From the NCBI GenBank assembly GCA_034723595.1, contig JAYEPB010000078.1, positions 9,592 through 73,591 on the forward strand: a DNA stretch of 64,000 nucleotides, written 5' to 3'. The stretch comes from Nanobdellota archaeon. GTDB lineage: Archaea > Nanobdellota > Nanobdellia > Woesearchaeales > JAGLGH01. The notes under the pieces were generated by a model. It made no database searches. It was given only the letters and a program-made list of their open reading frames with translations, and had not been told where the DNA came from. The stretch's first letter is position 1, and each line of letters begins with the position of its first letter. The position numbers were made by a program, and so were the translations under genes. Below, piece after piece: positions 5,802-19,448 of this stretch.

Positions 5802-6275
5802 ATGGCAAAGAAAAAAAAGAATATAGTTATGTACTTCTCAATGTTTGGCAAGAATGAGAAGATAGCAGATATCATTTCAATAGAGTTTGATGCGCTGAAG
5901 ATAAAGATTGCTACTTCTGGCTGGGGGCTGCTGAAGATACCAATGCATATGCTTAGAGGACTTTTGGAAAGAGATGTTGTGATGATTCCTAACACAAATC
6001 TGCAGGATTATAATATGATTTATATTGGCGGTCCAGTCTGGGCAGGCAAGCCATGCCCTGCACTTATGGACTTGATTAGGAAGATCCATATTAAAGGCAA
6101 GAATGTTGTGCTGTTCCTTACTGCTAAAGATGATTTTGGAAATGCTGAAGAACTGCTGAGAGAAGCTGTGAAGAAAAAAGGCGCAGAAGTGAAGGCATTG
6201 TTCAGGTTCCTGACAAGCGAGAATGAGGAAAAGATTAAAAAAAGATTCAAAGAGAAAGGATTAAGTTTTGACTGA
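5802..6275 (+). CDS. flavodoxin-like fold protein
   Basis: Alternating beta-alpha pattern and a segment IYIGGPVWAGKPCPALMDLI resembling flavodoxin/WrbA-type FMN-binding proteins. Weak call. Confidence 0.3.
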   Translation: MAKKKKNIVMYFSMFGKNEKIADIISIEFDALKIKIATSGWGLLKIPMHMLRGLLERDVVMIPNTNLQDYNMIYIGGPVWAGKPCPALMDLIRKIHIKGKNVVLFLTAKDDFGNAEELLREAVKKKGAEVKALFRFLTSENEEKIKKRFKEKGLSFD

Positions 6276-8315
6276 TGATGCTGGTGCTCCTTGAATAGTA
6301 GATTTGTTACTTACTTTTTTACCATAAATGTAAATATACTTCCAGGCAAATCCCTGTTTTCTTTCTATCTTTACATCAAATCCACACTGGCTAAATAGAT
6401 CTTTGATTGCTTTATTATCAGAAAGCCAATCTATGTTAGGAATTATATCAAAAAATTTGTTATACTCAACAAAACATATCTTTGCGCCTTTCTTAAGCAG
6501 TTTGTTCATGTGTGTCAGCACCTTGACAGGATTCTGAACATAACCGAGCATGCCTACAGATACGATGACATGCACATTAGGGACATCAGGATGCACTCTT
6601 TTATGATGAAGAGGGTCATGTAGTAAAGTAATATGCTTATGGCCTCTTTTCTCCATCCTCTTTTTGGTTATTGAAATATCTCGTTCACAGATATCTGTTG
6701 CATAGATTCTTCCTTTCTTCCCTACTTCTTCAGCAAGATGCATTGTGAGTGTCCCGACAGAACACCCAAATTCAAGAACTGTTTTTCCATGTATATTACC
6801 TATTAGCTTTATGACCTCTTTCCTCACTTTCACAGGCAGCATCAGGCGTTCAGTAAAGAGTGCTACATAGGCCAGCACATTATTGGTCTTCCTGACAGCC
6901 TTTGGATTATAATACATCTCAAGAAGGAAGTATATCGGCAGACCTACAAAAATCAGCGAGGCACCTAATCTCAGAATGTGCGTAGCGCCAGCTGTTTCTT
7001 TTATCCACATCCCTAATAAAAATATATTAAAGAGAATCACAATAAGAGGTCCAACCCTTGCAAAAGGAACCCGGTAGTATCTTTTGAGATTAGGTTTCTT
7101 ATCCCTTAATAAAGTCAGGCTGAATAAGACAGCAGAATACATTATCAATACTATTGGCACCAGAAGGTGCAGCAGAGTCAGGTAAGATCCTGCAGCGATA
7201 AAGACCAGAATAGAACTGATGATAGTCTGCAGTATTATGGCTTTGTGAGGTGTATAATATTTTGGATGTATCTTTGCAAATTGAGGAAGGAAAAGCTTGT
7301 CTTTTGCCATGGCAAGTATCAGGCGCGGTGCTGCAATGATCCATCCTGCAACTGATCCAATAATAGCCAGATAAACAAGCAATGTAAATATCGTTGAACC
7401 AATTGCCCCAAAGTGGACTGCTGCAAGGTCTGAAAGCGGCGCAGAGGACTCGCCAAATGTCTGCCAGGGAATCGCACTCATGGATGTTATAACAAATAAT
7501 AAGGAGATGACTGCTATTATAATGGTTCCATAAATTAATGCTTTAGGCATGACTCTTGCTCCATCTTTAGTCTCAGCAGCAAGAAAAGTGGAAGTCTCCC
7601 ATCCAAAAAATGTTTCTGCGACCAAAAATATTGTAACCATTATAGAAGATATAGGAAATACAAAAAAAGGGCTGAGGGTTGATGTCTTAAATGATGCTAA
7701 TCCTGGAATAATCAGCGCAAGCAGAGTGCCTATAGTGATGAAAGCAAAAGTCACGAGCATTACTGAACTTGTTTTCATTCCATGATATGCGATAAAGTTA
7801 AATATGAATATGAATGTAAGTGAGAAAAGTATCTGGGCCCAGACTATTTGCCCCGGAATAAGATATTGTATTGCTCCTACAACAAGCATAGCGATTGTGA
7901 TATTCCCAGCTATCAGTGTGCCCCAGCCGATTATGAAACTCCCGAACCTGCCATAAGCCTGCTTGCAGAATTCATATATCCCTCCTTCTTTTGGAAACAT
8001 GCTTGTTAACTCAGCAAAGCACATCGCGATATATATAGCAATGATTGAAAGTATGGCCCATGAAATCAATGAAGCAGGGCCTGCATGCTTGGCTCCTAAA
8101 GCAGGAAGGAAAAATATTCCAGTTCCCATTATAGAATTGATTGTGATTAGAAGGATTACTTTGAAGCTAAGTACTTTCTTCAGTTCTGTCATGGTGTGGA
8201 TATGGTGTTGAATGTATATAAAATGTTCGTTTTTAAAAATTTTGTTTTGTAACATTTTTAATGCTTGAATTGGAAAGAAAGAATATTTAAAAGAAAAAAT
8301 ATTTTTGGCTTGCAA
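6261..8315 (-). CDS. APC-family amino-acid permease fused to a C-terminal class I SAM-dependent methyltransferase domain
   Basis: About 460 aa with roughly 12 TM helices typical of amino acid/polyamine permeases. C-terminal domain carries MTase motif I VLEFGCSVG, post-I acidic IYATDI and motif II HVIVSVGMLGYV. Confidence 0.6.
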   Translation of the reverse strand: MQAKNIFSFKYSFFPIQALKMLQNKIFKNEHFIYIQHHIHTMTELKKVLSFKVILLITINSIMGTGIFFLPALGAKHAGPASLISWAILSIIAIYIAMCFAELTSMFPKEGGIYEFCKQAYGRFGSFIIGWGTLIAGNITIAMLVVGAIQYLIPGQIVWAQILFSLTFIFIFNFIAYHGMKTSSVMLVTFAFITIGTLLALIIPGLASFKTSTLSPFFVFPISSIMVTIFLVAETFFGWETSTFLAAETKDGARVMPKALIYGTIIIAVISLLFVITSMSAIPWQTFGESSAPLSDLAAVHFGAIGSTIFTLLVYLAIIGSVAGWIIAAPRLILAMAKDKLFLPQFAKIHPKYYTPHKAIILQTIISSILVFIAAGSYLTLLHLLVPIVLIMYSAVLFSLTLLRDKKPNLKRYYRVPFARVGPLIVILFNIFLLGMWIKETAGATHILRLGASLIFVGLPIYFLLEMYYNPKAVRKTNNVLAYVALFTERLMLPVKVRKEVIKLIGNIHGKTVLEFGCSVGTLTMHLAEEVGKKGRIYATDICERDISITKKRMEKRGHKHITLLHDPLHHKRVHPDVPNVHVIVSVGMLGYVQNPVKVLTHMNKLLKKGAKICFVEYNKFFDIIPNIDWLSDNKAIKDLFSQCGFDVKIERKQGFAWKYIYIYGKKVSNKSTIQGAPASSVKT

Positions 8316-8402
8316 AAGTTATTTTCAATCATTGATTATATCCTAATTTCCTTCTAAGATATCTTTCAGGAATACTCAGCTGGAATACTCAGGGATTTTC
8401 TA

Positions 8403-8633
8403 TTACTTATTAATGTTTTCTCCTGATCTATTTCCGTAAGTCTTAAAATTATCATAGAGTCGATTTTCCACAGCTAAATCAAGCTTATATTGTTCATTTA
8501 TTCGCTTAAGCTTATAGTTATGCTGGATGCCTTCTATTGTCACAGCTGTTTGATATCTTTCATTAATGTTTCGTATCTTTTTTGTGTGGCTTATATTTGC
8601 CCTAATTTTTTCTGATAATATTTTTTGTGTCAT
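8403..8633 (-). CDS. hypothetical small basic protein (76 aa)
   Basis: ORF only. Divergent from the conserved leader at 8676-8817. Confidence 0.25.
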   Translation of the reverse strand: MTQKILSEKIRANISHTKKIRNINERYQTAVTIEGIQHNYKLKRINEQYKLDLAVENRLYDNFKTYGNRSGENINK

Positions 8634-8675
8634 GGTAGTGCTTAGGAATGATTTATTATTAATAAGTTTTGTCTA

Positions 8676-8817
8676 ACTTTTTTCGCAAATGTTCCGAATC
8701 CAAAGTTCTTCCGATATCATCGGAAAATATAGTGTTTTTTTACCGTAATCCATTTTAAAGGCAACAGATTTTGGATGATTAATAAAAATTCCAACAAAAG
8801 TTGGGGAGGAAAATAAA
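8676..8817 (+). promoter_or_regulatory. conserved leader / divergent promoter region, copy 1 of 2, with palindrome TTCCGAT-ATC-ATCGGAA at 8709-8725 and a GGGGAGG SD
   Basis: About 140 bp that is about 85% identical to 10068-10211 (seen directly). Contains a 7-bp inverted repeat and a strong Shine-Dalgarno 8 nt before the ATG. Confidence 0.55.
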
Positions 8818-9306
8818 ATGGGAGAGCCATTACCACTTATTGTTAAATTACAAGAATATACAGATAAATACGAGGGATTAATGAAAAGAATAGATGAATC
8901 CTATCTGAATGAGAATTTTGGAACATTGCTAGGTTATATCCTTAGTGCGACCCCAGACCAATTGAATCCAGGAGGATACACTAATGATGAAAAAGAATTC
9001 GCACAAATGTTGGGAGATTATTATAATATAAATAAAAAGGCAGAGGATTATTTAGAAAACTTGAGAAATAAAAACGGAAAAGATTATCCAATAGACTTAA
9101 GAGCCCTAGCTTCTAGAAAAGAGATAAGAATGGGTGATGAGATAATGCTAAATGCAATAGATAAAAACAAAAGTTTAATCGAATGCCCGTTAGATGATAT
9201 AATAAATGAGTATAGTGAAAGAATTATTAAAGTAGAAAATATAGAAGATACGGATTATAAATATAGATTCATAGATCTCATTATCTCAAGATATTGCTGG
9301 GATTAA
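8818..9306 (+). CDS. hypothetical protein, paralog A of the 10212 gene (shared DESYLNENFGTLL.YIL N-terminal block)
   Basis: ORF. The first ~40 codons and the leader are near-identical to those of 10212-10637 at nucleotide level; the rest is diverged. Ends RYCWD, with no Gly-Gly. Confidence 0.5.
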   Translation: MGEPLPLIVKLQEYTDKYEGLMKRIDESYLNENFGTLLGYILSATPDQLNPGGYTNDEKEFAQMLGDYYNINKKAEDYLENLRNKNGKDYPIDLRALASRKEIRMGDEIMLNAIDKNKSLIECPLDDIINEYSERIIKVENIEDTDYKYRFIDLIISRYCWD

Positions 9307-9331
9307 TGTATCTAAAACTGAATTGATTTTT

Positions 9332-10027
9332 TTATTTTTTTAAAAATTTTATTCCAATCTGTTCTTCAATCTTTTTCCAGTTATAAATCAAAGCATCCTC
9401 ACACATATTGCATAACTTCAAAGTATCAGGATAATAATTAAATACACAACTATGTGTTACATTATAGGCTTTAGCAAGCTTCTTAGAACCATTTATTGCA
9501 TCCCCATGATGTTCTCCCAGTCCTAAAAGATGAACTGCTTCGTGTTTTGCAATTTTCTTTATAAAATCTCTTGCAGATTGTCTCTCTTTTGGAAGGTACA
9601 TATAAATAATTCCACTTCCAAATGCACCAAATCCCCAATCATAGTTATTATATGGGGCTTTTTGATCAATTATAATAACAGATGCATGAAAGTTACTGGT
9701 TCTGTTTTTATTCATATAAACTTCATCAGCAGAATAACTAATAGATTCAAAAAGATTACCCCCACATCTTAAATTATTTACAGCAGTTTCAACAGAATTA
9801 TCTACATAAGAATTCTTTACTTTAAAATCCATATTGAGTTCGTGAATTAATTCAAATAAGCCTTGTTTAACTGGTTCAACACAATAATCTGGAACATTTG
9901 AATAATTAAAGATTCCAATCTCCTTGCTCATAATCCAAGCAGGAAGTCTACTAAGTCTAATGTCAAGATAATTCATATACCTCCATTTCTGTTTGTAGAT
10001 TTCAGATTCATCCTTGTTATTTATCAT
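9332..10027 (-). CDS. HExxH zinc metallopeptidase, archaemetzincin-like
   Basis: HEAVHLLGLGEHH zincin motif followed by a Cys cluster (SCVFN...CNMC), reminiscent of the archaemetzincin HExxHxxGxxxH plus CxxC arrangement. The spacing is off by one residue, so the family call is tentative. Confidence 0.45.
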   Translation of the reverse strand: MINNKDESEIYKQKWRYMNYLDIRLSRLPAWIMSKEIGIFNYSNVPDYCVEPVKQGLFELIHELNMDFKVKNSYVDNSVETAVNNLRCGGNLFESISYSADEVYMNKNRTSNFHASVIIIDQKAPYNNYDWGFGAFGSGIIYMYLPKERQSARDFIKKIAKHEAVHLLGLGEHHGDAINGSKKLAKAYNVTHSCVFNYYPDTLKLCNMCEDALIYNWKKIEEQIGIKFLKK

Positions 10028-10067
10028 TTTAAAAATTATAAATCAGTTCCTTTTAATATATTTACCT

Positions 10068-10211
10068 CAAATTTTCTCGCAAATTTTCCGAATCCAAAGT
10101 TCTTCCGATATCGTCGGAAAATCGAGTGTTTTTTTACCGTAATCTATTTTAAAGGAAGTAGGTTTTGGATGATTAACAAAAATCCCAACAAAAGTTGGGG
10201 AGGAAAATAAA
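10068..10211 (+). promoter_or_regulatory. conserved leader / divergent promoter region, copy 2, with palindrome TTCCGA-TATCG-TCGGAA at 10103-10119 and a GGGGAGG SD
   Basis: Direct nucleotide similarity to 8676-8817. Confidence 0.55.
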
Positions 10212-10637
10212 ATGACAAAACCATTTGTAGCAATGTTGGGTGATGACTCAAATAGAAATAAAGATATGAGACTTGTAAAAACAGTAGATGAATCTTATCT
10301 AAATGAAAATTTTGGAACATTATTGGATTATATTCTTAATCCAGGAGTTGATGAATTAAATTCAGGATATAATGATGATGAGACAAATTTTGCACAAACC
10401 TGGAAAGATCTTTATGATCAGAGCAAAAGCGAACCTAAAATTGAGATTGGTCTCTGCGCAATAGATAGAAATAAGCAATTTGTTCCATGTCCACTTCATA
10501 AGGTTCTTGGAGATTATAGTGATAGGTTTATAAAACCGATGAATGAGATTGGTGAAGATGGAAATGAATATAAGTATAATGGAATTGAATTGATTATAGC
10601 TGATCTTAGTGAAGGAGGATCAATGAGGTATTTGTAA
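10212..10637 (+). CDS. hypothetical 141-aa protein, paralog B. Gly-Gly lies 5 residues from the C-terminus (...ADLSEGG-SMRYL). First gene of the E1/JAB operon.
   Basis: ORF. Its stop overlaps the start of the next gene (TAATG). Shares the DESYLNENFGTLL block with 8818. Confidence 0.5.
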   Translation: MTKPFVAMLGDDSNRNKDMRLVKTVDESYLNENFGTLLDYILNPGVDELNSGYNDDETNFAQTWKDLYDQSKSEPKIEIGLCAIDRNKQFVPCPLHKVLGDYSDRFIKPMNEIGEDGNEYKYNGIELIIADLSEGGSMRYL

Positions 10638-12103
10638 TGATATCTCAAATTCCTAAAGTATTTCTTGAAAATTTTAGAGAAAGTGATGAGTCATTCCTTA
10701 TACATCAAGGAATGATTTACACTTTACATTGTCCAACCAGTCAAAATAGTCTAAATAAATTATTCTATGCAAATAGAGATTTTAATCTATTCCAATCTGA
10801 AGATATTGACACATTACAGGAAGAATATCTTAATCATAGTAGGGATTCTATTGAGAACTTAGTAAGTGATTATATTCAGCATAATTATATTGAAAAACTT
10901 GAAAGATTAAAAATCAACATAGATTCTCAAAAGAATCTATTCCAAGAAACACAAAACAATTCAATTGAAAAATTAATTGTATTAGATATCTTTGATAAAT
11001 TTTGTAATCTCTGTAATGTCTCTAATTCTAATGGAAATAAGAATAACAAATCCAAAACTGTAGCTTCAAATTTAAAATTATCTGCAATCAATAAAACAAT
11101 GGGATTATCATCGTCATTAGATTATGCTGCTTTTGGGAAAACACCTTTTGCCAGATACCTAAATTCTATTTCTATGATGGTTCTTGGTCAAAGGGCTTAT
11201 TCCCTAAGGAAAGAAAATTCTATAACAAATAATTATGTCCAAATAAAAAATCATAAATATAAGATTTGTGAGTCCCAAACATTTGATAGATTTATTTTAG
11301 ATTACAAAAAGATTATCTCAAAGAGCATAACATCTGTGATTCAAAAGGAATCTAGTAACTATATAAATCAATTAAGCGAATTTAAAAAAGCGAAAACTGA
11401 ACTTGATATACTAATTAATCAAGAAAATCAGTTTAATGAATTAAAAGAAAGGGAAAGACGAGCAGAGATGTTCAATTGCACAATTGGGTTTAAGGCTCGA
11501 GGGAAAAATAATTCTCAGGATATATATGATATTTATATTAAATTAGATCCATATATCATGAAGAAAGATGATAATTATTATCAGTTTGATACTGTTAAGA
11601 TAGGTACTTCTCTAGCAGTATCTAGGAATCAAATTAAAATTACTAATAAACCAGAAGTTCTTACAAAAGAATATCACCACCCTTTTGTATGGGATTGGTT
11701 GAAAATTTGTGATAAGGGTTATAAAAAAGATAGATATGAAAGAGAGGGTGTTAATTTTGAAAATTTTAATGTTGATTATCTGGATGGTTTTGCGAGAAAT
11801 GTCGCAGTAGCTTTGAATGTTGCAAAAAAGATAATTGAGTATGGGTATAATGGGTCAAGAGTTTCTCCCGTCAAAAAGCTTAGTCCTTCAAAATTCCCAG
11901 AAGAATACATAAGGGGAGGTAAATCAGCAGCTTTGTCTACAGGTATAAGGATTGTTGATAATGATCTTTGGAAGGAAAATATTAACCCAAAAAAAAGCAA
12001 TATCAGATCAATTACGAGGATTAATACAGATAATCTTGAGAGTTATATGGTAAACTATCTCCAAAACAATCAGAATAATCTAATCTATTCTGAGGGGATG
12101 TGA
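10637..12103 (+). CDS. hypothetical 488-aa protein with a possible degenerate E2 (UBC)-like motif HPFVWDWLKIC
   Basis: Translationally coupled on both sides. The segment EYHHPFVWDWLKICDKG has the H-P-x...C spacing of the UBC HPN-x7-C active-site loop, but no other E2 landmarks could be verified. Confidence 0.45.
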   Translation: MISQIPKVFLENFRESDESFLIHQGMIYTLHCPTSQNSLNKLFYANRDFNLFQSEDIDTLQEEYLNHSRDSIENLVSDYIQHNYIEKLERLKINIDSQKNLFQETQNNSIEKLIVLDIFDKFCNLCNVSNSNGNKNNKSKTVASNLKLSAINKTMGLSSSLDYAAFGKTPFARYLNSISMMVLGQRAYSLRKENSITNNYVQIKNHKYKICESQTFDRFILDYKKIISKSITSVIQKESSNYINQLSEFKKAKTELDILINQENQFNELKERERRAEMFNCTIGFKARGKNNSQDIYDIYIKLDPYIMKKDDNYYQFDTVKIGTSLAVSRNQIKITNKPEVLTKEYHHPFVWDWLKICDKGYKKDRYEREGVNFENFNVDYLDGFARNVAVALNVAKKIIEYGYNGSRVSPVKKLSPSKFPEEYIRGGKSAALSTGIRIVDNDLWKENINPKKSNIRSITRINTDNLESYMVNYLQNNQNNLIYSEGM

Positions 12104-13581
12104 AAAAAATGATTTCATATATTCAGGATGATAGGCAAGTAAGAATTGATGGGTGGGGGCAAGATGGTCAGGAAAAAATAAGAAAAAGTAAACCATTAGT
12201 TCTAGGGTCAGATGTTCTTTCCCAAATGTTGTTAGTAAATTTGGCAGGACTTGGAGTAGGCAATATTATGCTTATGGATAATCAGAGAATAGGCAGAGAA
12301 GATAGATCTAACTTTCTTTATAAAAAAGAATATCAAAATGACATTTTTATAGGAAATAAGCGTGGAAAACAAATAAAAAAGATAGTAGAAAAAATAAATG
12401 ATAATATATCATTAATGTATAGACATTCTAAATTTCGGGAAGCATGGTTATATGATTTCAAGCCTTCAATAATATTTGATACTACAAATAATGTTATATC
12501 AAAAAGAGAAGCATTGTCATATAGCCTAAAATATGATATTCCCTTTATCAATATATGCGCTGATGAAAATAAAGCAATAATTACTGAATTTAATCCAAAA
12601 GATAGATGCAAAAAAGATAATGACCTTTTAGAATCTATAATCCTCAAGGAATTCTGCGATACAGAACAAGGACCAATTCCTTGCGGGGTTATAGCAGGTC
12701 TTGCAGCAGAAGAATTAAGAAAGCATGCAATAAATCTGAATAATAAAGAATCTGATAATCCTCTTAAATCTGGAGAAAGAATAATATATAATTTATATTC
12801 AGATTCTAGAGTTTCATTAGATTCAGAAGTTAATTCAAATCCATTCAGCTATCCTAGAGATGTTAAAGCTCTTTTGATTGGGGCAGGTGCTATCGGTAAT
12901 TATGTTGCATTAAATCTCTCACTTATTGGCGTAGGGAAGATTGATGTTCTTGATGGAGATGTAATTAAAGATCATAATCTAAATAGGCAGTTTGCATTCT
13001 ATGATAGAATAAAAAAAGATAAGGCAAAAGTGTTGAGTGAAAGAATAAAAGAATTCAACCCAGCTATCAAATCAGATTATTTTATAAAGATGCTTGATTC
13101 AGGGGATGGCGATATTTTTTCAAAGAACAATCCTGATGAAAAATACGATTTAGTATTTGGTTGTGTAGATAATCTTGAAGCAAGGAAACTTATTAATCAA
13201 TTTTGCGTGCGAAATTCCATTCCTTTAGTTGATGGAGCAACAGATGCTTTAAAAGGTCAAATAGCTGTTTATGACCCCAGAAAAAAAAGATGCTTGGATT
13301 GTCAATTTGATTATGATTATCGGATTGAACAGCGTAATGAAAGAAGGAAGAATTGGATTCAACAAAATGGCAATAGTTGTATTGACACAACAAACCCCAG
13401 TGTAGTTATCCCTAATATAATTATAGGAAGTGCTATGGTTGGAGAGGGATTGAGAGTTCTTTATGATAAATATAAACAAAAACCTCTAGAAGGATATTTT
13501 AAATATAATTCTAATGGGGGCGAGCGTATATCAAAAACAATGTTTAGAGGATATTTAAAAAATTGCGAGGCAGAAAAATGA
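12100..13581 (+). CDS. E1-like (ThiF/MoeB/Uba-type) activating enzyme with a tandem degenerate N-terminal and intact C-terminal adenylation domain
   Basis: N-domain RQVRIDGWGQDGQEKIRKSKPLVLGSDVLSQ...GVGNIMLMD mimics the E1 N-terminus, but the GxGxxG loop and the NLNRQ motif are lost. C-domain KALLIGAGAIGNYVALNLSLIGVGKIDVLDGDVIKDHNLNRQFAF, then GCVDNLEAR...VDGATDALKGQI, CxxC (RCLDC) and a candidate catalytic Cys in NSCIDTTNP. Confidence 0.7.
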   Translation: MKKMISYIQDDRQVRIDGWGQDGQEKIRKSKPLVLGSDVLSQMLLVNLAGLGVGNIMLMDNQRIGREDRSNFLYKKEYQNDIFIGNKRGKQIKKIVEKINDNISLMYRHSKFREAWLYDFKPSIIFDTTNNVISKREALSYSLKYDIPFINICADENKAIITEFNPKDRCKKDNDLLESIILKEFCDTEQGPIPCGVIAGLAAEELRKHAINLNNKESDNPLKSGERIIYNLYSDSRVSLDSEVNSNPFSYPRDVKALLIGAGAIGNYVALNLSLIGVGKIDVLDGDVIKDHNLNRQFAFYDRIKKDKAKVLSERIKEFNPAIKSDYFIKMLDSGDGDIFSKNNPDEKYDLVFGCVDNLEARKLINQFCVRNSIPLVDGATDALKGQIAVYDPRKKRCLDCQFDYDYRIEQRNERRKNWIQQNGNSCIDTTNPSVVIPNIIIGSAMVGEGLRVLYDKYKQKPLEGYFKYNSNGGERISKTMFRGYLKNCEAEK

Positions 13582-14741
13582 TTTCAGAAAAATTCAAACA
13601 GTTTGTCGAAAATTTCGATGTAGAAGGATATATTAGAAGATTTGAAGAAAGTGATTATTATAAAGAAAAATTTGTGCCAAAGATAAATAATATGATCAAA
13701 TCTCATTATCAAAGAGAAATAAAAAAAAGAGTAGAAAACTATGAAGGGAATAATTATGTTTATCCTGAATTCAGTAAAGTTAAGATAACGCAAAAAGCTT
13801 TAGATAAAGGGAAGTATATATCAAAAAGAGTTTGTGAATTTGCGGATTCAGATTATGAAATATATATGTATATGATTGGTGATAACTCCAATAAAGAACC
13901 TATCGTAGATGATTTTTATATAGGCATTGATCAAACTGTAGAACCTGATTATTGTAAAATCAGCCCATTCGGTAAAATTCGTACTTCGTATGATATAACA
14001 GATAATTTAGAAAAAAGAATTTTGGGGTGGAGTCATTCTCATGGTTCAATAGACACATTCCATTCTCGTAAAGATAGAAAAAACCTTCAAAAATTTGTCG
14101 CATCATATGGACTTTCTAAAAAGATTGATCTTTTAGACGATGAAGAAGGCGATGACCAATTATTGCATGATGTTTATTATACACCTAGTTTGGTATTTAA
14201 CAAATATATGTGGGAAACTAATATTCTGCCTTTTGCAGGAGTAGCTTTAGATTATACAAAATTTGGTAATAAAAAAAATACGAAATTCCATCTTAATGAT
14301 GATGTGGAGATTGAAGTAATTAAGAGTGATCCATTAACTAAAAAAGAGATGGAAGATATAGATGAAATGATTCTGGATAGAGTTAATCTTAAAGGTTTAG
14401 GTAAACTTAGAGATATTTATGAAAAAAGAACACTTGAGCAAAACTCTCCTATGGATAATGATATATCCTCTATTTTAGAAGAGCATAGTCCTGATTATAA
14501 TTCTTTAGATAAAAGTAGTCTTATAGGTCTGATTAGGAAACAAGAATCAAAATATAAGAGTCTTTTTGAAAAGTATGGAACAATTGTTAAAGATTATAAC
14601 TATTTACAGGATAAATATCATGATTTAAAAAATAAAAATAGTTCATTGAGATCAATTGTTATGAAATGTAAAAAATATATCAAGAATCAGGTCAAACTAA
14701 AAGGAGTTAAGCACCAACGAGAAAATGTCAAAAATAATTGA
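13578..14741 (+). CDS. JAB/MPN+ (JAMM) metallopeptidase, deubiquitinase-like
   Basis: JAMM motif H-x-H-x7-S-x2-D present as HSHGSIDTFHSRKD, with an upstream Glu candidate. ATG at 13578 overlaps the E1 stop (ATGA). The ORF track starts earlier, at a TTG at 13563. Confidence 0.65.
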   Translation: MISEKFKQFVENFDVEGYIRRFEESDYYKEKFVPKINNMIKSHYQREIKKRVENYEGNNYVYPEFSKVKITQKALDKGKYISKRVCEFADSDYEIYMYMIGDNSNKEPIVDDFYIGIDQTVEPDYCKISPFGKIRTSYDITDNLEKRILGWSHSHGSIDTFHSRKDRKNLQKFVASYGLSKKIDLLDDEEGDDQLLHDVYYTPSLVFNKYMWETNILPFAGVALDYTKFGNKKNTKFHLNDDVEIEVIKSDPLTKKEMEDIDEMILDRVNLKGLGKLRDIYEKRTLEQNSPMDNDISSILEEHSPDYNSLDKSSLIGLIRKQESKYKSLFEKYGTIVKDYNYLQDKYHDLKNKNSSLRSIVMKCKKYIKNQVKLKGVKHQRENVKNN

Positions 14742-14790: not shown

Positions 14791-16824
14791 ATGATAAGAA
14801 GAAAAATAGAACAAATATTAGCGAATGAAAATAAAAGAATTAATGTAAATAATGTTAATCAAAATAGTCTATCGAATAATCTTCTTGCAGTGTATTTTTT
14901 AGATAATATTCCTGATAAAAATCTTGCTATTGATGATTTGATTATTAATGATTTTTTGTATAAATTTATATCTTCTGAAGAGAAGAATAAGATTTATAAT
15001 CTTAATGAGGTAATCTCAAAATTATCAAAAGTAGATGAGAATCAAGTGAATAAATCAAAGAGTAAGAAAATCTTAATGATCCCTAAAATAAATATCCAAA
15101 TGACCTTAGCGATAGATTCTTATCTTGATTTGATTAAAAATGAAGAATCTTTGGAAATTATAACTGGATTAAAGTCAAAAGATGATTTAAAGGCATTACT
15201 GTTGATTGATAGAATTTCTGGTACTCAGAAGTATAGTGATTTAGAGTTTGTTATTGATAAAAAAGATTGCGTTGAGAAAAATGCGATTATAGCTGCAAAG
15301 TATTCAACAGAACTATCAGCCCTCTCAAAATCAGATTCTAACCTAAAATCTTCATATCAGATATTAAATAATCTTCCATCTGATTTTACTCTGACTGCTA
15401 TAAAACAAATCAAGAAGATAAATCAGGAAGTCACAGATTCCAGTATTGATTATAAAATAATATCAAAGAATCCAAAACTAATAAAAAAGATAAATGCCGT
15501 AAAAGGCAGGTATAATAATTTAAAGAGACGTACAAGCAGCTGGTTGGATAAAGAATTAAATATATACCTTGAAAAGGAATATAAAAAGATTAATTTCAAT
15601 ATATCCAGAATGACAGACCTGGATTTGGCTATTGAAAAGACAGATAATGCTTCCAGGCAGTTGAATAAGATTAAAAATAAATATAAAGCAGCAGGCATAA
15701 CTCCTGCTAAATTTAATAAGAAATATTCTCAGCTTTCTGCCCAGCAAAATAAGCTTAAAAGTTATAATGTATTAAAAAAGGGATTTGTGAAGAATTGCGC
15801 AATAATCAAAAGAGAAAGGCAGCTGATAGAAGATAAAGGGGTAGATGATATTGCTGATTTAGTATCATTAATAAATAAAGAAAAAAACATATTGAATAAT
15901 GCAGATATATCAGAAACAAAGTTTAGTGATTTAGATACTGCTAAGCAGGATTATATCAATGAATCAAAAAGGTTTAAAGATGCAGTAAATCTGGAGATCA
16001 GTTCAATCAAGCAATATTTGAATCATAGCTGTGATATATTGATTGAGAAGGCTGGTAAATATACTGGTCTATCTGGACTTTTTGGTGAGAGAGATAAAGA
16101 ATCATTGGTAGGGTTGAAAGATGAGGCAAAAAGCTTAGCTGATCAGATTTTATTGGTGAAAAAAGAGTTTGGGATACCTGATTATGTGATTCAGAAAAGC
16201 AATGAGCTTAGTAATTTAGTCGATAAACTTATTAAGAAAAATAAGTATACAATTTCTCAAAAGCTAAAGAGAGGTCTTAGTTATAAATATGCAGAAGCTG
16301 GATTGTTGGTTTCTAATTATCTCCCTTCAAAAGAGATTATTGGCGCAAGTGTTTTTTCTAGTTATCTAGAGAATGATAAATATAATATAATTCAAAAAGG
16401 CAATAAGACTATGAGTTTTGAGCAAAATTTGTCAAATCTTCCTCCTATAAATGATTTCAGCAGTGATTATATGGGTAGTTTAAAACAAAGTGACAATAAG
16501 ACTGCAAGAAAAACTTATGGTCTTGCATCAAGTCGCAAAGGGAAGAGACTAATCAATATCTTTGCCGCGGGATTAATATTCTCAATAACTTCTCTTGGGA
16601 TTTATGGGATTGTTAATCCTCAATCAACTTATGTATTGCAAAAGGAAGTAGAAACTATTGAAAAAACTGAAGATTATTCTAGCATCCATAAACCAGAACA
16701 TACAATATATGATTCTACAATTAGGGATATAGATAAGATTGTTGATAAAACGCAAAGAACATATGAATCAACAATAAGAGATTTAAAAAAGATGTTCAAT
16801 GGGAATCTTATAACACCAGATTAA
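14791..16824 (+). CDS. large Lys/Asn-rich coiled-coil protein with a C-terminal TM anchor; last gene of the E1/JAB operon
   Basis: 677 aa of low-complexity helical sequence with one hydrophobic helix near the C-terminus (LINIFAAGLIFSITSLGIYGIV). 50 bp downstream of the JAB gene, same strand. Confidence 0.45.
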   Translation: MIRRKIEQILANENKRINVNNVNQNSLSNNLLAVYFLDNIPDKNLAIDDLIINDFLYKFISSEEKNKIYNLNEVISKLSKVDENQVNKSKSKKILMIPKINIQMTLAIDSYLDLIKNEESLEIITGLKSKDDLKALLLIDRISGTQKYSDLEFVIDKKDCVEKNAIIAAKYSTELSALSKSDSNLKSSYQILNNLPSDFTLTAIKQIKKINQEVTDSSIDYKIISKNPKLIKKINAVKGRYNNLKRRTSSWLDKELNIYLEKEYKKINFNISRMTDLDLAIEKTDNASRQLNKIKNKYKAAGITPAKFNKKYSQLSAQQNKLKSYNVLKKGFVKNCAIIKRERQLIEDKGVDDIADLVSLINKEKNILNNADISETKFSDLDTAKQDYINESKRFKDAVNLEISSIKQYLNHSCDILIEKAGKYTGLSGLFGERDKESLVGLKDEAKSLADQILLVKKEFGIPDYVIQKSNELSNLVDKLIKKNKYTISQKLKRGLSYKYAEAGLLVSNYLPSKEIIGASVFSSYLENDKYNIIQKGNKTMSFEQNLSNLPPINDFSSDYMGSLKQSDNKTARKTYGLASSRKGKRLINIFAAGLIFSITSLGIYGIVNPQSTYVLQKEVETIEKTEDYSSIHKPEHTIYDSTIRDIDKIVDKTQRTYESTIRDLKKMFNGNLITPD

Positions 16825-17912: not shown

Positions 17913-18380
17913 TTAATCTGTGAATGTAAAATCTTGAATATTATTTGATAAAAAATCTTCTCTTTTCATTTCTTCAATTATGTAAAATGTCTGCTTTTCT
18001 ATGATATCAAATCTTTCTTCCAATGCTTCTATAAACTCTTCAATCTCTTTTATATTAGTGAATACTGCTTCAATTAAGTAATCATAGCCACTGTTAATTT
18101 TAAACAATGAATTGATATTTGGGCATTTATTTAGATATTCCCCACATTCCTTTTTATTTTCCTTAGCAACTTTAAGTATGATTTTTGCTTGTGTATTGTA
18201 GCCAATCTTATTAAAATCTATTAGGCAGGTGTGCTTTACTATCAAATCATTCTCAAAACCCTTTAATTTATCAAATAATGTTGACACAGGCACCCCTGTT
18301 TTCCTTGACATTTTTGTCAAAGATTCCCTTGCGTTGTTTCTTAATCTTGATACGATTTCTATGTCTTTGTTTTTAACCAT
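17913..18380 (-). CDS. Lrp/AsnC-family transcriptional regulator
   Basis: N-terminal HTH (ESLTKMSRKTGVPVSTLFDKLKGFE) and a C-terminal RAM-like domain. 155 aa. Confidence 0.6.
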   Translation of the reverse strand: MVKNKDIEIVSRLRNNARESLTKMSRKTGVPVSTLFDKLKGFENDLIVKHTCLIDFNKIGYNTQAKIILKVAKENKKECGEYLNKCPNINSLFKINSGYDYLIEAVFTNIKEIEEFIEALEERFDIIEKQTFYIIEEMKREDFLSNNIQDFTFTD

Positions 18381-18512
18381 TTTTTGTGCCTCACTTAATT
18401 ATTTTCGTTTTATTCGGAAATAAGTATACTTAGTTCTAGCCTACCATATATACTTTGTTAACACATTGTGTATATTAGTACATATATCCACATATTTTAG
18501 AAAAGTTTATAT

Positions 18513-19448
18513 ATGCGCAAGGAATTACACCCTTTTATGAAGCGAAAAGTAGTACGACACGGCTCAGCAACATTGACAATAAGCCTACCTTCAAAATGGG
18601 CAAAAAAGTTTGACATAAAGCAAGGGGATGAACTTGAGATTGAGGAGGAGGGAAGTTCATTAGCTATCTCAACTGAAAAATATTTAAAATTAAATGAATG
18701 TGAATTTGTTATTGATCCTGGAACAATTTCATACATTAGGAGTATTATTAGCAATTCCTATAAGAAAGGATATGATGTAATTAATTTAAAATTTGAAGAA
18801 CCAAATGTAATTGTAACAATTCAAAAAGTTGTTGATGGATTATTAGGATATGAGATAGTTGAACAAGGTCAAGGCTATTGTATTATTAAAAATGTTGCGT
18901 CAGGGCTAGAAACAGAATTTGAGTCTATGTTAAAGAAATCATTCTTTATGACTTTAACAATGGGAGAAATATGTCTTGAGGATATTAATAATAAAAAATT
19001 AAAAAACTATGAAGAAATTCGACAAATGAAAGATAATATAACAAAATTTACGAATTTCTGCAAAAGATTAACTAATAAGGCAAAAAAGAATCTTGACTCA
19101 AATTCATTTGCTTATCTTATTCTCTGGAGTTTAGAAAAGATTGCTAATGAATATAAATATATCTATCGTTATTTGTCTAAACATACAACAAATCAATTAT
19201 CAAAAAAAACATTGGATTATTTTAAGAATACAAATCAATTATTAAGGTTATATTTTGATGGATTTTATAAGAAAGATAATAAGATGATTAAAAATATTAC
19301 AACACTTAAAGATCAATATTTATATAAAGATTTATATGATGTATTAAAACAAACAAAACACCTAGATTCTGTTGTAATCCACCATCTTGCTAATATTATT
19401 AGAAGAGTATATGATATGACTGGTCCTTATTTTGGCATTTATCTCTAA
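18513..19448 (+). CDS. putative regulator with an N-terminal AbrB/SpoVT-type swapped-hairpin domain
   Basis: VVRHGSATLTISLPSKWAKKFDIKQGDELEI resembles AbrB/MazE-like DNA-binding barrels. The rest is helical and unassigned. Confidence 0.35.
   Translation: MRKELHPFMKRKVVRHGSATLTISLPSKWAKKFDIKQGDELEIEEEGSSLAISTEKYLKLNECEFVIDPGTISYIRSIISNSYKKGYDVINLKFEEPNVIVTIQKVVDGLLGYEIVEQGQGYCIIKNVASGLETEFESMLKKSFFMTLTMGEICLEDINNKKLKNYEEIRQMKDNITKFTNFCKRLTNKAKKNLDSNSFAYLILWSLEKIANEYKYIYRYLSKHTTNQLSKKTLDYFKNTNQLLRLYFDGFYKKDNKMIKNITTLKDQYLYKDLYDVLKQTKHLDSVVIHHLANIIRRVYDMTGPYFGIYL

What the first reader, a model, noticed from the sequence alone, without database searches (positions are those of the whole stretch)
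8676..10637. Duplicated leader plus 5' coding block shared by two diverged paralogs, each in a divergent promoter region with a conserved palindrome
About 140 bp upstream of 8818 and of 10212 are about 85% identical. They include an SD GGGGAGG, and a 7-bp inverted repeat (TTCCGAT-ATC-ATCGGAA) in copy 1 that copy 2 keeps only as a 6-bp variant (TTCCGA-TATCG-TCGGAA). The first ~40 codons (DESYLNENFGTLL...) are also near-identical at nucleotide level, while the rest of the two proteins has diverged strongly. That pattern points to gene conversion, a recent partial duplication, or constraint on a structured 5' leader or operator. Each copy faces a divergently transcribed gene; one of these is an HExxH metallopeptidase.
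Basis: seen in the sequence. Interest (0 to 1): 0.55.

Follow-up and report, generated by a model that had tools for sequence, protein, structure and literature searches.

The report
Conserved promoter block before ubiquitin-like genes
A 140-base non-coding block occurs twice in this Nanoarchaeota genome, is kept in related genomes better than the genes it precedes, and is most likely the shared promoter and control region of a ubiquitin-like protein-tagging operon and of an orphan relative of its tag protein.

Summary
The repeat is real and sharper than reported. Window 8678-8817 and 10072-10211 are 91% identical, against about 50% on both sides. The first 21 codons are not conserved (48% nt). 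The shared coding block is codons 22-42, a protein motif found across the family.

Seven more leader copies turned up in related Nanoarchaeota contigs. Leader identity stays at 72-77% where four-fold synonymous sites are saturated (23-47%), so the block is under purifying selection. The two window copies also share 5 unique derived bases, which points to some gene conversion.

The conservation profile fits an archaeal promoter. It runs: an upstream array of TTCCG half-sites that includes the palindrome, a T-run, a TATA-like box (ATTTTAAAG) 58-66 nt before the ATG, a variable 23-nt spacer, then an invariant ~35-nt 5'UTR with a CCAAC/GTTGG hairpin abutting the SD.

I found no RNA covariation, no Rfam match and no coding signal.

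The downstream genes form a Bil-like ubiquitination operon:
- a beta-grasp Ubl ending in GG plus a short tail;
- a putative E2;
- a two-domain E1;
- a JAB peptidase.

Copy 1 heads an orphan Ubl paralogue that lacks the GG.

The regulator, the transcription start and the binding sites are all inferred, not shown. This is a new variant of a known kind, of moderate interest.

The parts
8678..8817 (+). Leader copy 1: conserved non-coding block in front of the type-B Ubl-like gene
   Evidence: 91.4% identical to 10072-10211. nhmmer E 9e-42 with the 9-copy profile. Aligned with 8 other copies.
10072..10211 (+). Leader copy 2: the same block in front of the Ubl gene that heads the E2-E1-JAB operon
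8692..8725 (.). Array of TTCCG half-sites in copy 1: TTCCGA at 8692, then the palindrome TTCCGAT-ATC-ATCGGAA at 8709-8725. Inferred binding sites for a regulator.
   Evidence: These are the only clusters of 3 TTCCG/CGGAA within 60 nt in 64 kb. 35-44% of columns vary across the 9 copies. No RNA covariation.
10086..10119 (.). The same half-site array in copy 2. The palindrome at 10103-10119 carries one A>G change.
8735..8760 (+). T7 run (8735-8741), BRE-like ACCGTAATCC and TATA-like box ATTTTAAAG (8752-8760). Inferred core promoter of the Ubl-like gene; the box lies 58-66 nt before the ATG.
   Evidence: The TATA segment is the most conserved part, with 20% variable columns. The T-run/CAGAAAGCC/ATTTTAAA arrangement recurs in the distant loci L011, L012 and L010.
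10129..10154 (+). The same T-run, BRE-like and TATA-like box in copy 2
8761..8783 (+). Variable spacer between the TATA box and the inferred transcription start (copy 2: 10155-10177)
   Evidence: 87% of columns vary across the 9 copies, the least conserved segment. w1 vs w2 is 78% here.
8784..8817 (+). Inferred 5'UTR of copy 1: A-run, stem-loop CCAAC-AAAA-GTTGG (8791-8804; the MFE helix adds a U.G pair, 8790-8805) and SD GGGGAGG (8803-8809)
   Evidence: 97% identical between the two copies. The stem is invariant in 9 copies. The 6-bp stem folds at -6.4 and -9.2 kcal/mol, z -1.9 and -3.1.
10178..10211 (+). Inferred 5'UTR of copy 2: hairpin at 10185-10198 and SD at 10197-10203
8656..8666 (-). 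Upstream TATA-like box TTATTAATAAG (copy 2: 10050-10060), about 27 nt from the divergent start codon. Inferred promoter of a leaderless divergent transcript.
   Evidence: The position is conserved in 8 of 9 copies. It is absent in L009, which has no divergent gene.
8818..9306 (+). Type-B Ubl-like paralogue (162 aa), with no C-terminal GG and a 27-aa insert. It stands alone, with no operon downstream.
   Evidence: 40% identical to the 141-aa protein. Orthologue P0005 is in L004.
10212..10637 (+). Type-A Ubl (141 aa, ends ..SEGG-SMRYL), first gene of the operon
   Evidence: AF2 pLDDT 91. Foldseek top hits are all ubiquitin-like beta-grasp domains, best E 3.9e-3 with probability about 1. Most family members inspected end in GG with or without a short tail.
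9332..10027 (-). Divergent HExxH protein 'M1' (231 aa; HEAVHLLGLGEHH ... CNMC)
   Evidence: Motif found. Orthologues sit divergent from leaders in L004 and L008. No Pfam, NCBIfam or PDB match.
8403..8633 (-). 76-aa divergent ORF facing copy 1; doubtful gene
   Evidence: No family hit and no homologue among the divergent genes of related loci.
10637..12103 (+). 488-aa protein, putative E2 (YHHPFV..IC motif)
   Evidence: Conserved next to the Ubl in every operon seen. hhalign places HHPFV..IC on the HPN..IC of UBE2D2, but with probability 1.6%. The AF2 model failed at pLDDT 33.
12100..13581 (+). E1 with two ThiF-type domains
   Evidence: Pfam ThiF 2.4e-60 in 2 stretches. The C-terminal half matches the active domain of Uba1 at 1.7e-16 and the N-terminal part matches SAE1 at 3e-4.
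13563..14741 (+). JAB/MPN+ peptidase
   Evidence: Exact HxHx7SxxD motif, HSHGSIDTFHSRKD, at aa 158. Weak Prok-JAB hit and weak Rpn11-like hit.
14791..16824 (+). 677-aa protein rich in coiled coil with one C-terminal TM helix, the last operon gene; function unknown
   Evidence: Homologous to the 444-aa protein in L008. Sequence shown.

Best explanation
The 140-bp block is a dedicated cis-regulatory cassette that heads every gene of one ubiquitin-like (Ubl) protein family in this Nanoarchaeota lineage.

Read 5' to 3' it contains:
(a) about 60 bp carrying four to five TTCCG-type half-sites, including the 17-bp palindrome. These are inferred binding sites for a sequence-specific transcription regulator.
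(b) A T-run, a BRE-like element and a TATA-like box ATTTTAAAG, 58-66 nt before the ATG. This is the inferred core promoter.
(c) A 23-bp spacer that is free to vary.
(d) A 5'UTR of about 35 nt. It starts near 8781-8786 (copy 2: 10175-10180) and forms a short stem-loop whose 3' arm overlaps the first G residues of the SD.

The window holds two copies because two family members use the cassette. One is the conjugatable Ubl (GG plus tail) that heads a Bil-like Ubl/E2/E1/JAB operon. The other is a stand-alone paralogue without the GG. The two would therefore be switched on together.

The sequence is held by purifying selection across genomes. Inside this genome it has also been homogenised by gene conversion.

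Shown: the conservation, the sharp boundaries, the segment-wise conservation profile, the absence of RNA covariation and of coding signal, and the nature of the downstream genes (the E2 assignment excepted).

Inferred: the TSS, regulator binding, co-regulation, and any role of the divergent HExxH proteins.
For: - There are nine distinct copies, always directly upstream of a Ubl-family gene. L009 has no divergent gene, so the block belongs to the Ubl side.
- Leader identity between the window clade and L008/L009 is 72-77%. Four-fold sites of the orthologous E1, permease and 488-aa genes are 40%, 47% and 23% identical, and the Ubl CDS is 62%.
- Within L004 the two leaders are 80% identical while the two Ubl genes are 49% identical in nt and 33% in aa.
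- The share of variable columns fits the order TATA, spacer, transcript: TATA 20%, next 23 nt 87%, hairpin plus SD 26%, upstream block 35-44%.
- Variable sites show no 3-nt periodicity (11/10/9), and frames are interrupted by stops.
- There are no compensatory pairs and no Rfam hit.
- TTCCG/CGGAA clusters occur only in the two leaders within 64 kb.
- In distant operons (L010, L011, L012; Ubl 24-33% identical) the best plus-strand hit of the leader profile falls just upstream of the Ubl gene. L011 keeps ACAGAAAGCCATTTTAAA.
- There is a precedent. Bacterial Type II Bil operons often share a promoter region with divergent capH/capP regulator genes (bioRxiv 10.1101/2023.09.26.559546; PMC13373217).
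Against: - There are no transcript data, so the TSS and the promoter assignment rest on sequence logic alone.
- No DNA-binding protein gene is conserved next to the cassette.
- The palindrome is imperfect in 8 of 9 copies, and its arms do not change symmetrically.
- A second TATA-like box upstream could drive plus-strand transcription through the whole block.
- Seven of the nine copies come from closely related genomes. The window and L001 are about 80% identical at four-fold sites. The case for selection therefore rests mainly on the L008/L009 comparison and on the contrast with the paralogue CDS.
- The hits in distant loci are not significant one by one (E 0.27-3.8).
Confidence: 0.6

Rival explanations
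1. The whole block is a long structured 5' leader RNA, or a short cis-encoded RNA. Transcription would start about 25 nt downstream of the upstream TATA-like box (near 8686). The hairpin at 8709-8725 followed by the U7 run at 8735-8741 would act as an attenuator or terminator. Alternatively, the UUUUCC and UCC stretches would pair with the SD region (GGAGGAAAAU) to gate translation.
For: - A hairpin followed 9 nt later by a conserved T6-7 run is present in all 9 copies.
- Four of the hairpin changes are G.U-compatible on the plus strand.
- RNAalifold pairs AUUUUCC (cols 59-65) with GGAAAAU after the SD in 8 of 9 copies.
- Copy 2 folds better than shuffles, z -2.8.
- Distant loci also have a stem next to or over the SD.
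Against: - There are zero compensatory changes in the hairpins. Four cells in the hairpin are unpaired: C.A in L008 and L009, A.C in L001, U.C in L008.
- The covariation term is only +0.35 to +0.95 kcal/mol.
- Copy 1 folds no better than shuffles, z -0.8.
- Loops and linkers are as conserved as the stems.
- An excellent conserved TATA box followed by a freely varying 23-nt spacer sits inside the supposed RNA.
- L009 lacks the upstream box.
- No Rfam family matches.
Confidence: 0.17
2. There is no function beyond an ordinary promoter. The similarity of the two window copies would simply reflect recent gene conversion or a partial duplication between paralogous loci.
For: - w1 and w2 are 91% identical, more than either is to the leader of its orthologue (85% and 81-83%).
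- They share 5 unique derived bases, against at most 2 for any other pair.
- The similarity stops abruptly on both sides.
Against: - The block is kept at 72-77% across genomes with saturated synonymous sites.
- It is kept at 80% between the two L004 copies, which show no sign of homogenisation.
- Its boundaries are the same in every genome.
- Conversion alone cannot explain conservation between genomes.
Confidence: 0.08
3. The block is a recombination joint. It would be a conserved site at which [peptidase gene] and [Ubl gene or operon] cassettes are exchanged, either by homologous recombination or by a site-specific recombinase that recognises the palindrome.
For: - The flanks are shuffled between genomes. 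M1, M2, a 329-aa gene, a 76-aa ORF or no divergent gene lie on one side, and Ubl types A, B or C on the other.
- Leaders group by the divergent gene family rather than by Ubl type, with 4 fixed differences between the groups.
- The 34-nt near-invariant stretch before the ATG would serve as a crossover point.
Against: - No recombinase or integrase gene lies in or next to any locus.
- No flanking direct repeats were found.
- Shuffling is the expected by-product of any conserved repeated sequence and does not explain why the sequence is conserved.
Confidence: 0.05
4. The block encodes a small protein or an N-terminal extension. This would be the minus-strand frame ..KKTLDFPTISEELWIRKICEK.., which in L001 and L003 runs into the divergent gene. 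The plus-strand extension called in L003 as a 197-aa protein is a second candidate.
For: One minus-strand frame is open over about 22 codons in all 9 copies. Gene callers extended ORFs through the leader in L001 (463 aa) and L003 (197 aa).
Against: - There is no start codon in w2 or L004a.
- Stops fall 4-6 codons after the candidate ATG in L004b, L006, L008 and L009.
- Plus-strand frames contain stops in most copies.
- Variable sites show no codon periodicity, 11/10/9.
Confidence: 0.02

Closest known systems
Shared divergent promoter regions of bacterial Type II Bil (BilABCD, '6C/CEHH') operons controlled by CapH+CapP, and the analogous CapW and CapK+CapS modules
   Same: - A Ubl/E2/E1/JAB operon whose first gene is the Ubl.
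- A gene for an HExxH-motif protein upstream in the opposite direction, sharing the promoter region.
- A palindrome in that region.
- In the related loci L001 and L004 the divergent 410-424-aa HExxH protein gives a faint Peptidase_M78 (CapP family) hit, E 0.045.
   Different: - No HTH repressor gene (the CapH equivalent) is present.
- The window's own divergent protein (M1) gives no M78 hit.
- The host is an archaeon, so the promoter is of the TATA/BRE type.
- The cassette is repeated in front of several paralogous Ubl genes and is itself strongly conserved.
- The divergent partner is interchangeable and sometimes absent.
Type II Bil ubiquitination-like antiviral system (Chambers et al., bioRxiv 10.1101/2023.09.26.559546; Hor et al., bioRxiv 10.1101/2023.09.04.556158)
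   Same: - A single-beta-grasp Ubl with a C-terminal Gly followed by a tail that would need trimming.
- An E1 built from an inactive and an active adenylation domain in one chain.
- A JAB peptidase.
- A protein with an HP..IC motif in the E2 position.
   Different: - The gene order is Ubl-E2-E1-JAB, not bilA-B-C-D.
- The putative E2 is 488 aa with a long helical N-terminal part and is unconfirmed.
- There is an extra 677-aa membrane-anchored coiled-coil protein.
- The Ubl family has no Pfam or NCBIfam model.
- An additional non-conjugatable Ubl paralogue is present.
- The host is a DPANN archaeon.
Archaeal promoters with upstream regulator sites (BRE/TATA plus operator or activator sites, as for Lrp- or TrmB-family regulators; from general knowledge)
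   Same: - A TATA-like box with a BRE-like element.
- An inferred start about 25 nt downstream.
- Repeated half-sites and a palindrome upstream of the BRE/TATA, where archaeal activators typically bind.
   Different: The regulator is unknown. The motif TTCCGA-N5-TCGGAA does not correspond to a site I can assign to a known family. Conservation of the whole 140 bp is unusually high for a promoter.
Structured 5' leaders, riboswitches and SD-sequestering hairpins
   Same: A conserved non-coding sequence upstream of an SD, with a small stem-loop that overlaps the first bases of the SD.
   Different: There is no Rfam match and no covariation, and a probable promoter lies inside the block.

Membership tests
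Type II Bil-like ubiquitination operon | Ubl with a beta-grasp fold and a C-terminal glycine, often followed by a tail | tested here: met
   AF2 pLDDT 91, pTM 0.83. The Foldseek PDB top hits are all ubiquitin-like folds (RAWUL, FERM F1, USP UBL, PB1), best E 3.9e-3 with probability about 1. The protein ends ..SEGG-SMRYL. GG with or without a short tail is found in most family members inspected.
Type II Bil-like ubiquitination operon | E1 with an inactive plus an active adenylation domain in one chain | tested here: met
   Pfam ThiF 2.4e-60 in 2 stretches. Residues 255-396 match the active domain of Uba1 at 1.7e-16. Residues 9-74 match the SAE1 inactive subunit at about 3e-4. GAGAIG lies at 261 and a degenerate GWGQDG at 18.
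Type II Bil-like ubiquitination operon | E2 (CEHH/UBC-like) with a catalytic cysteine | tested here: inconclusive
   An invariant YHHPFV..IC motif is present. hhalign aligns it to the HPN..IC of UBE2D2 with probability 1.6% only. There is no PDB or Pfam hit. The AF2 model is unusable at pLDDT 33.
Type II Bil-like ubiquitination operon | JAB/JAMM peptidase | tested here: met
   Exact HxHx7SxxD motif, HSHGSIDTFHSRKD. Weak Prok-JAB hit at E 0.009. Weak Rpn11-like hit.
Type II Bil-like ubiquitination operon | Fixed gene order bilA-bilB-bilC-bilD | tested here: not met
   The order here, and in L001, L008 and L010, is Ubl, E2-like, E1, JAB. Bacterial operons are reported as consistently A-B-C-D.
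Type II Bil-like ubiquitination operon | Protection against viruses by Ubl conjugation | not testable with these tools
PADLOC 2023 gives only generic E1-E2 hits for the E1.
CapH+CapP-controlled promoter | Divergent Peptidase_M78 (CapP) gene sharing the promoter region | tested here: inconclusive
   The window's M1 (9332-10027) has HEAVH but no M78 hit. M2 in L004 gives a faint M78 hit at E 0.045. L006, L009 and copy 1 have no HExxH partner.
CapH+CapP-controlled promoter | Adjacent XRE-type HTH repressor gene (CapH) | tested here: not met
   No HTH-domain gene lies next to any of the 9 cassettes.
CapH+CapP-controlled promoter | Repressor-bound palindromic operator in the shared promoter | not testable with these tools
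   A palindrome is present, but binding cannot be tested.
Structured cis-regulatory RNA (riboswitch or attenuator) | Conserved secondary structure supported by compensatory changes, or a match to a curated family | tested here: not met
   There are 0 pairs with a change on both sides and 4 unpaired cells in the palindrome helix. Rfam gives no match at E<=1 locally or at gathering score for the whole window.
Archaeal BRE/TATA promoter | A/T-rich TATA box preceded by a BRE, with the start about 25 nt downstream | tested here: inconclusive
   The conserved ATTTTAAAG, followed by a variable 23-nt spacer and then renewed conservation, fits this layout. No TSS data exist.

The most novel reading that the evidence does not exclude
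The upstream half of the block (about 8686-8741) would be transcribed as a short RNA, or as the 5' part of a long leader. Its hairpin plus U-run would act as an attenuator. Its UUUUCC/UCC stretches would pair with the SD region of every Ubl-family mRNA. That would make it a dedicated RNA switch coupling expression of an archaeal ubiquitination-like system and its non-conjugatable Ubl paralogue to some signal.
Probability: 0.12. Interest if true: 0.75.

Novelty: new variant of a known kind. Interest (0 to 1): 0.5.

Why it matters
Ubiquitin-like conjugation operons of the Bil and Bub type are a current topic in prokaryotic immunity and in the origin of eukaryotic ubiquitination. How they are switched on is known only for bacteria (CapW, CapH/CapP, CapK/CapS).

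This locus shows a DPANN-archaeal version of such an operon. Its control region is conserved more strongly than the modifier gene itself and is re-used in front of several paralogous modifier genes, including one that cannot be conjugated.

That gives a concrete 140-bp target for finding the archaeal regulator and the inducing signal. It also offers a sequence tag, usable with nhmmer, for finding further members of this rare family; only 5 proteins matched among 5.8 billion by word-indexed search.

It also flags annotation errors, where ORFs have been extended through the leader.

Tried and rejected
- Rfam scans of 8000-11000 (E<=1) and of the whole window found nothing.
- RNAalifold and explicit pair counting on 6 and 9 copies gave no compensatory changes.
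- Exact-pattern scans for the leader found nothing in IMG/VR or in JGI metagenomes. In GTDB genomes they found one true hit (L006) and one chance hit in a Bryobacterales gene (L007).
- Protein-based scans of JGI metagenomes failed. No pattern could be derived from A6, and there were no confirmed hits with A7.
- A search for a third copy or a regulon in the window, using a 27-mer with 3 mismatches, the palindrome pattern, nhmmer and TTCCG clusters, found only the two copies. Isolated TCGGAAA sites at 18414, 63446 and 63783 resemble nothing in the leader.
- The coding hypotheses for the leader were rejected.
- The 76-aa ORF is not a remnant of the HExxH gene.
- The motif TCTYCCRA proposed by eye for distant loci did not hold up when counted.
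- Identification of the HExxH proteins and the 488-aa protein by Pfam, NCBIfam, PADLOC and PDB profiles gave nothing usable.
- AF2 of the 488-aa protein with a 3-sequence alignment failed at pLDDT 33. The deeper alignment A9 was not accepted by the tool.
Full report
**1. The observation**

The two regions align without gaps at an offset of 1394 nt.
- Window 8678-8817 and 10072-10211 are 91.4% identical over 140 nt.
- Identity drops to 52% in the 44 nt upstream and to 48% in the first 63 coding nt.
- A 27-mer from the block occurs exactly twice in 64 kb and never in 100 shuffles.
- The SD (GGGGAGG, 8803-8809 and 10197-10203) and the palindrome are as described. Copy 1 has TTCCGAT-ATC-ATCGGAA at 8709-8725. 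Copy 2 at 10103-10119 carries one A>G change.
- Both copies face a minus-strand ORF whose start codon is in the same register (8633 and 10027).

One claim needs correcting.
- Codons 1-21 are not conserved (48% nt, 19% aa).
- The shared coding block is codons 22-42 (81% nt, 81% aa, third positions 67%).
- That block, DESYLNENFGTLL.YIL, is a protein motif conserved across the family.
- The two proteins are alignable end to end at 40% identity, E 1e-25.

**2. Source and relatives**

The two small proteins are annotated hypothetical proteins of a Nanoarchaeota MAG. The family is rare. Only 5 clusters matched among 5.8 billion proteins by word-indexed search. An exhaustive profile search found 56 representatives at 50% clustering.

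Looking up the contigs of relatives, plus one DNA-pattern scan of GTDB genomes, gave seven further distinct copies of the leader:
- L001 (= L002)
- L003
- L004, which carries two copies (one = L005)
- L006
- L008
- L009

L006 and L008 are syntenic with the window through the permease-methyltransferase gene.

In every case the block ends at the ATG of a Ubl-family gene. In L009 the upstream gene is co-directional, and the block is still there. It therefore belongs to the Ubl gene, not to the divergent gene.

**3. Is it selected?**

Core-leader identity is 80-91% within the close clade and 72-77% between that clade and L008/L009.

Window versus L008, for comparison:

| Gene | Four-fold sites identical |
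|---|---|
| E1 | 40% |
| Permease | 47% |
| 488-aa gene | 23% |

These values are at saturation for a 33% GC genome. The Ubl coding DNA is 62% identical.

Within L004 the two leaders are 80% identical, while their Ubl genes are 49% (nt) and 33% (aa) identical. The non-coding block is therefore conserved better than the gene it precedes, with the same boundaries in all genomes. This is purifying selection.

A caveat applies. Window and L001 are close (about 80% at four-fold sites), so the argument rests on L008/L009 and on the contrast between paralogues.

There is also concerted evolution in the window genome.
- w1 and w2 share 5 derived bases unique within the close clade, 4 of them unique among all 9 copies. 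No other pair shares more than 2.
- w1 shares none with the leader of its orthologue L004a.

**4. What kind of element?**

- **Coding is excluded.** Variable columns fall 11/10/9 over the three phases. The only frame open in all copies lacks a start codon in two copies and has early stops in four.
- **RNA structure is unsupported.** Neither hairpin has a compensatory pair. The palindrome helix has C.A in L008 and L009, A.C in L001 and U.C in L008. The SD hairpin is invariant and so uninformative. The RNAalifold covariation term is negligible. Copy 1 folds no better than shuffles, while copy 2 gives z -2.8. Rfam finds nothing.
- **The segment-wise conservation profile is informative**:

| Segment | Variable columns |
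|---|---|
| Upstream 50 nt with TTCCG half-sites and palindrome | 35-44% |
| T-run | 22% |
| TATA-like ATTTTAAAG (8752-8760) | 20% |
| Next 23 nt (8761-8783) | 87% |
| A-run + CCAAC/GTTGG stem-loop + SD | 26% |

This is the layout of an archaeal promoter: regulator sites, BRE/TATA, a sequence-tolerant spacer of about 25 nt, then the transcript. It predicts a TSS near 8781-8786 and 10175-10180 and a 5'UTR of about 35 nt.

The UTR stem (6 bp; -6.4 kcal/mol in copy 1, -9.2 in copy 2) covers the first two or three G residues of the SD.

A second TATA-like box (8656-8666) lies about 27 nt from the divergent start codon. It would give a leaderless divergent mRNA, and it is missing in L009.

TTCCG/CGGAA occurs 30 times in 64 kb. 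Six of these fall in the two leaders, which are the only places with three within 60 nt.

The distant operons L010, L011 and L012 have Ubls 24-33% identical, and L010 has 56% GC. In each, the best plus-strand nhmmer hit of the leader profile lies directly upstream of the Ubl gene. The E-values (0.27-3.8) are not significant singly. L011 keeps ACAGAAAGCCATTTTAAA, and L012 and L010 keep the T-run/CCG.AA/TATA arrangement.

**5. The genes served**

- **The 141-aa protein.** It models with pLDDT 91. All its top Foldseek hits are ubiquitin-like beta-grasp domains. It ends SEGG-SMRYL, and most family members inspected end in GG with or without a short tail.
- **The 488-aa protein downstream.** It has an invariant YHHPFV..IC motif. 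hhalign places this on the HPN..IC of UBE2D2, but at negligible probability. Its AF2 model failed. It is a putative E2 only.
- **The E1.** It has two ThiF-type domains. The C-terminal half matches the active domain of Uba1 at 1.7e-16, and the N-terminal part matches SAE1 at 3e-4.
- **The JAB peptidase.** It has an exact HxHx7SxxD motif.
- **The 677-aa protein.** It is rich in coiled coil with one C-terminal TM helix.

This is the gene content of Type II Bil operons, with a different gene order.

Copy 1 of the leader serves a stand-alone paralogue (type B). It lacks the GG and carries a conserved 27-aa insert, so it cannot be conjugated.

A third type (C, ending in GGN or GGNG) heads further operons of the same kind in L004, L006 and L009.

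The divergent partner varies:
- an HEAVH..CNMC protein (M1: window copy 2, L004a, L008)
- an unrelated 410-424-aa HEF[GC]H protein with a faint Peptidase_M78 hit (M2: L001, L003, L004b)
- a 329-aa protein without HExxH (L006)
- a doubtful 76-aa ORF (window copy 1)
- nothing (L009)

Leaders group by divergent-gene family rather than by Ubl type. Cassettes have therefore recombined at or near the invariant stretch before the ATG.

**6. Mechanism proposed**

The block is the promoter, operator and 5'UTR cassette of the Ubl gene family. It places the conjugation operon and the non-conjugatable paralogue under one control.

The nearest known analogue is the shared divergent promoter of bacterial Bil, Bub and CBASS operons governed by CapH+CapP and related modules. 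Membership in that scheme is not established. No HTH repressor gene is present, and the window's HExxH protein has no M78 signature.

I put 0.6 on the promoter/operator reading. The rivals get 0.17 for a transcribed structured or attenuating leader, 0.08 for conversion without special function, 0.05 for a recombination site and 0.02 for coding.

**7. Verdict**

The structured-RNA and regulon ideas found no support.

The element is a new variant of a known kind, a regulatory region of a ubiquitination-like operon. It is notable for being better conserved than its genes and for being re-used across paralogues in a DPANN archaeon. Interest is moderate (0.5).

Noticed in passing
window 10212-10637 vs L001 1666-2091: The Ubl evolves unusually fast at the protein level. 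Between two close genomes it is 74.5% aa identical, while the E1 is 90.8%. Codon positions 1, 2 and 3 are 85%, 91% and 86% identical, so there is no excess of synonymous change. This suggests relaxed or diversifying selection on the modifier.
   Followed up: partly
window 8818-9306; L004 1539-2009: A type-B Ubl paralogue without the C-terminal GG carries a strongly conserved 27-aa insert (KAEDYLENLRNKNGKDYPIDLRALASR). It is always a stand-alone gene behind its own leader copy. It could be a decoy, a sensor or a regulator of the conjugation system.
   Followed up: partly
window 8403-10211; L001, L004, L006, L008: The cassettes [divergent gene][leader][Ubl gene or operon] are arranged differently in each genome. 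The window has 76aa|B|M1|A-operon; L004 has M1|B|M2|C-operon; L001 has M2|A-operon; L008 has M1|A-operon; L006 has 329aa|C. This indicates recombination at the leaders.
   Followed up: partly
L003 701-1294; L001 210-1601 (minus strand): Public gene calls run through the leader. One is a 197-aa call for a 141-aa Ubl homologue, starting at a GTG. The other is a 463-aa call for a 424-aa HExxH protein. Both are likely annotation artefacts caused by frames left open in the conserved block.
   Followed up: yes
window 12100-13581: The E1 is a single 493-aa chain with a degenerate N-terminal adenylation domain and an active C-terminal one, the eukaryote-like pseudo-dimer layout. The segment after the CLDC motif that would hold the catalytic Cys is only about 30 aa long.
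   Followed up: partly
window 6261-8192 (-); L008 521-2413: An amino-acid permease is fused to a C-terminal SAM-dependent methyltransferase domain. The fusion is conserved (84% aa) and syntenic in a second Nanoarchaeota genome.
   Followed up: no
window 19445-22297 (-) and 18513-19448 (+): A 950-aa protein with a C-terminal Ser/Thr protein kinase domain sits next to a 311-aa protein with an N-terminal MazE/AbrB-type domain. An Lrp/AsnC regulator lies at 17913-18380. All are just downstream of the ubiquitination-like operon.
   Followed up: no
L010 3995-20094 (GCA_964587045.1, 56% GC): A distant operon of the same family carries two JAB paralogues. Its neighbours include Mrr_cat, AAA ATPase, an AsnC-like protein and two transglutaminase-core genes. 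The setting looks like a defence island.
   Followed up: no
L007 1594-1653 (Bryobacterales MAG): A 28-nt degenerate leader pattern with 22 specified bases matched by chance inside a GC-rich coding region of an unrelated bacterium. This is a reminder that a single pattern hit in 596 Gb needs checking against its context.
   Followed up: yes
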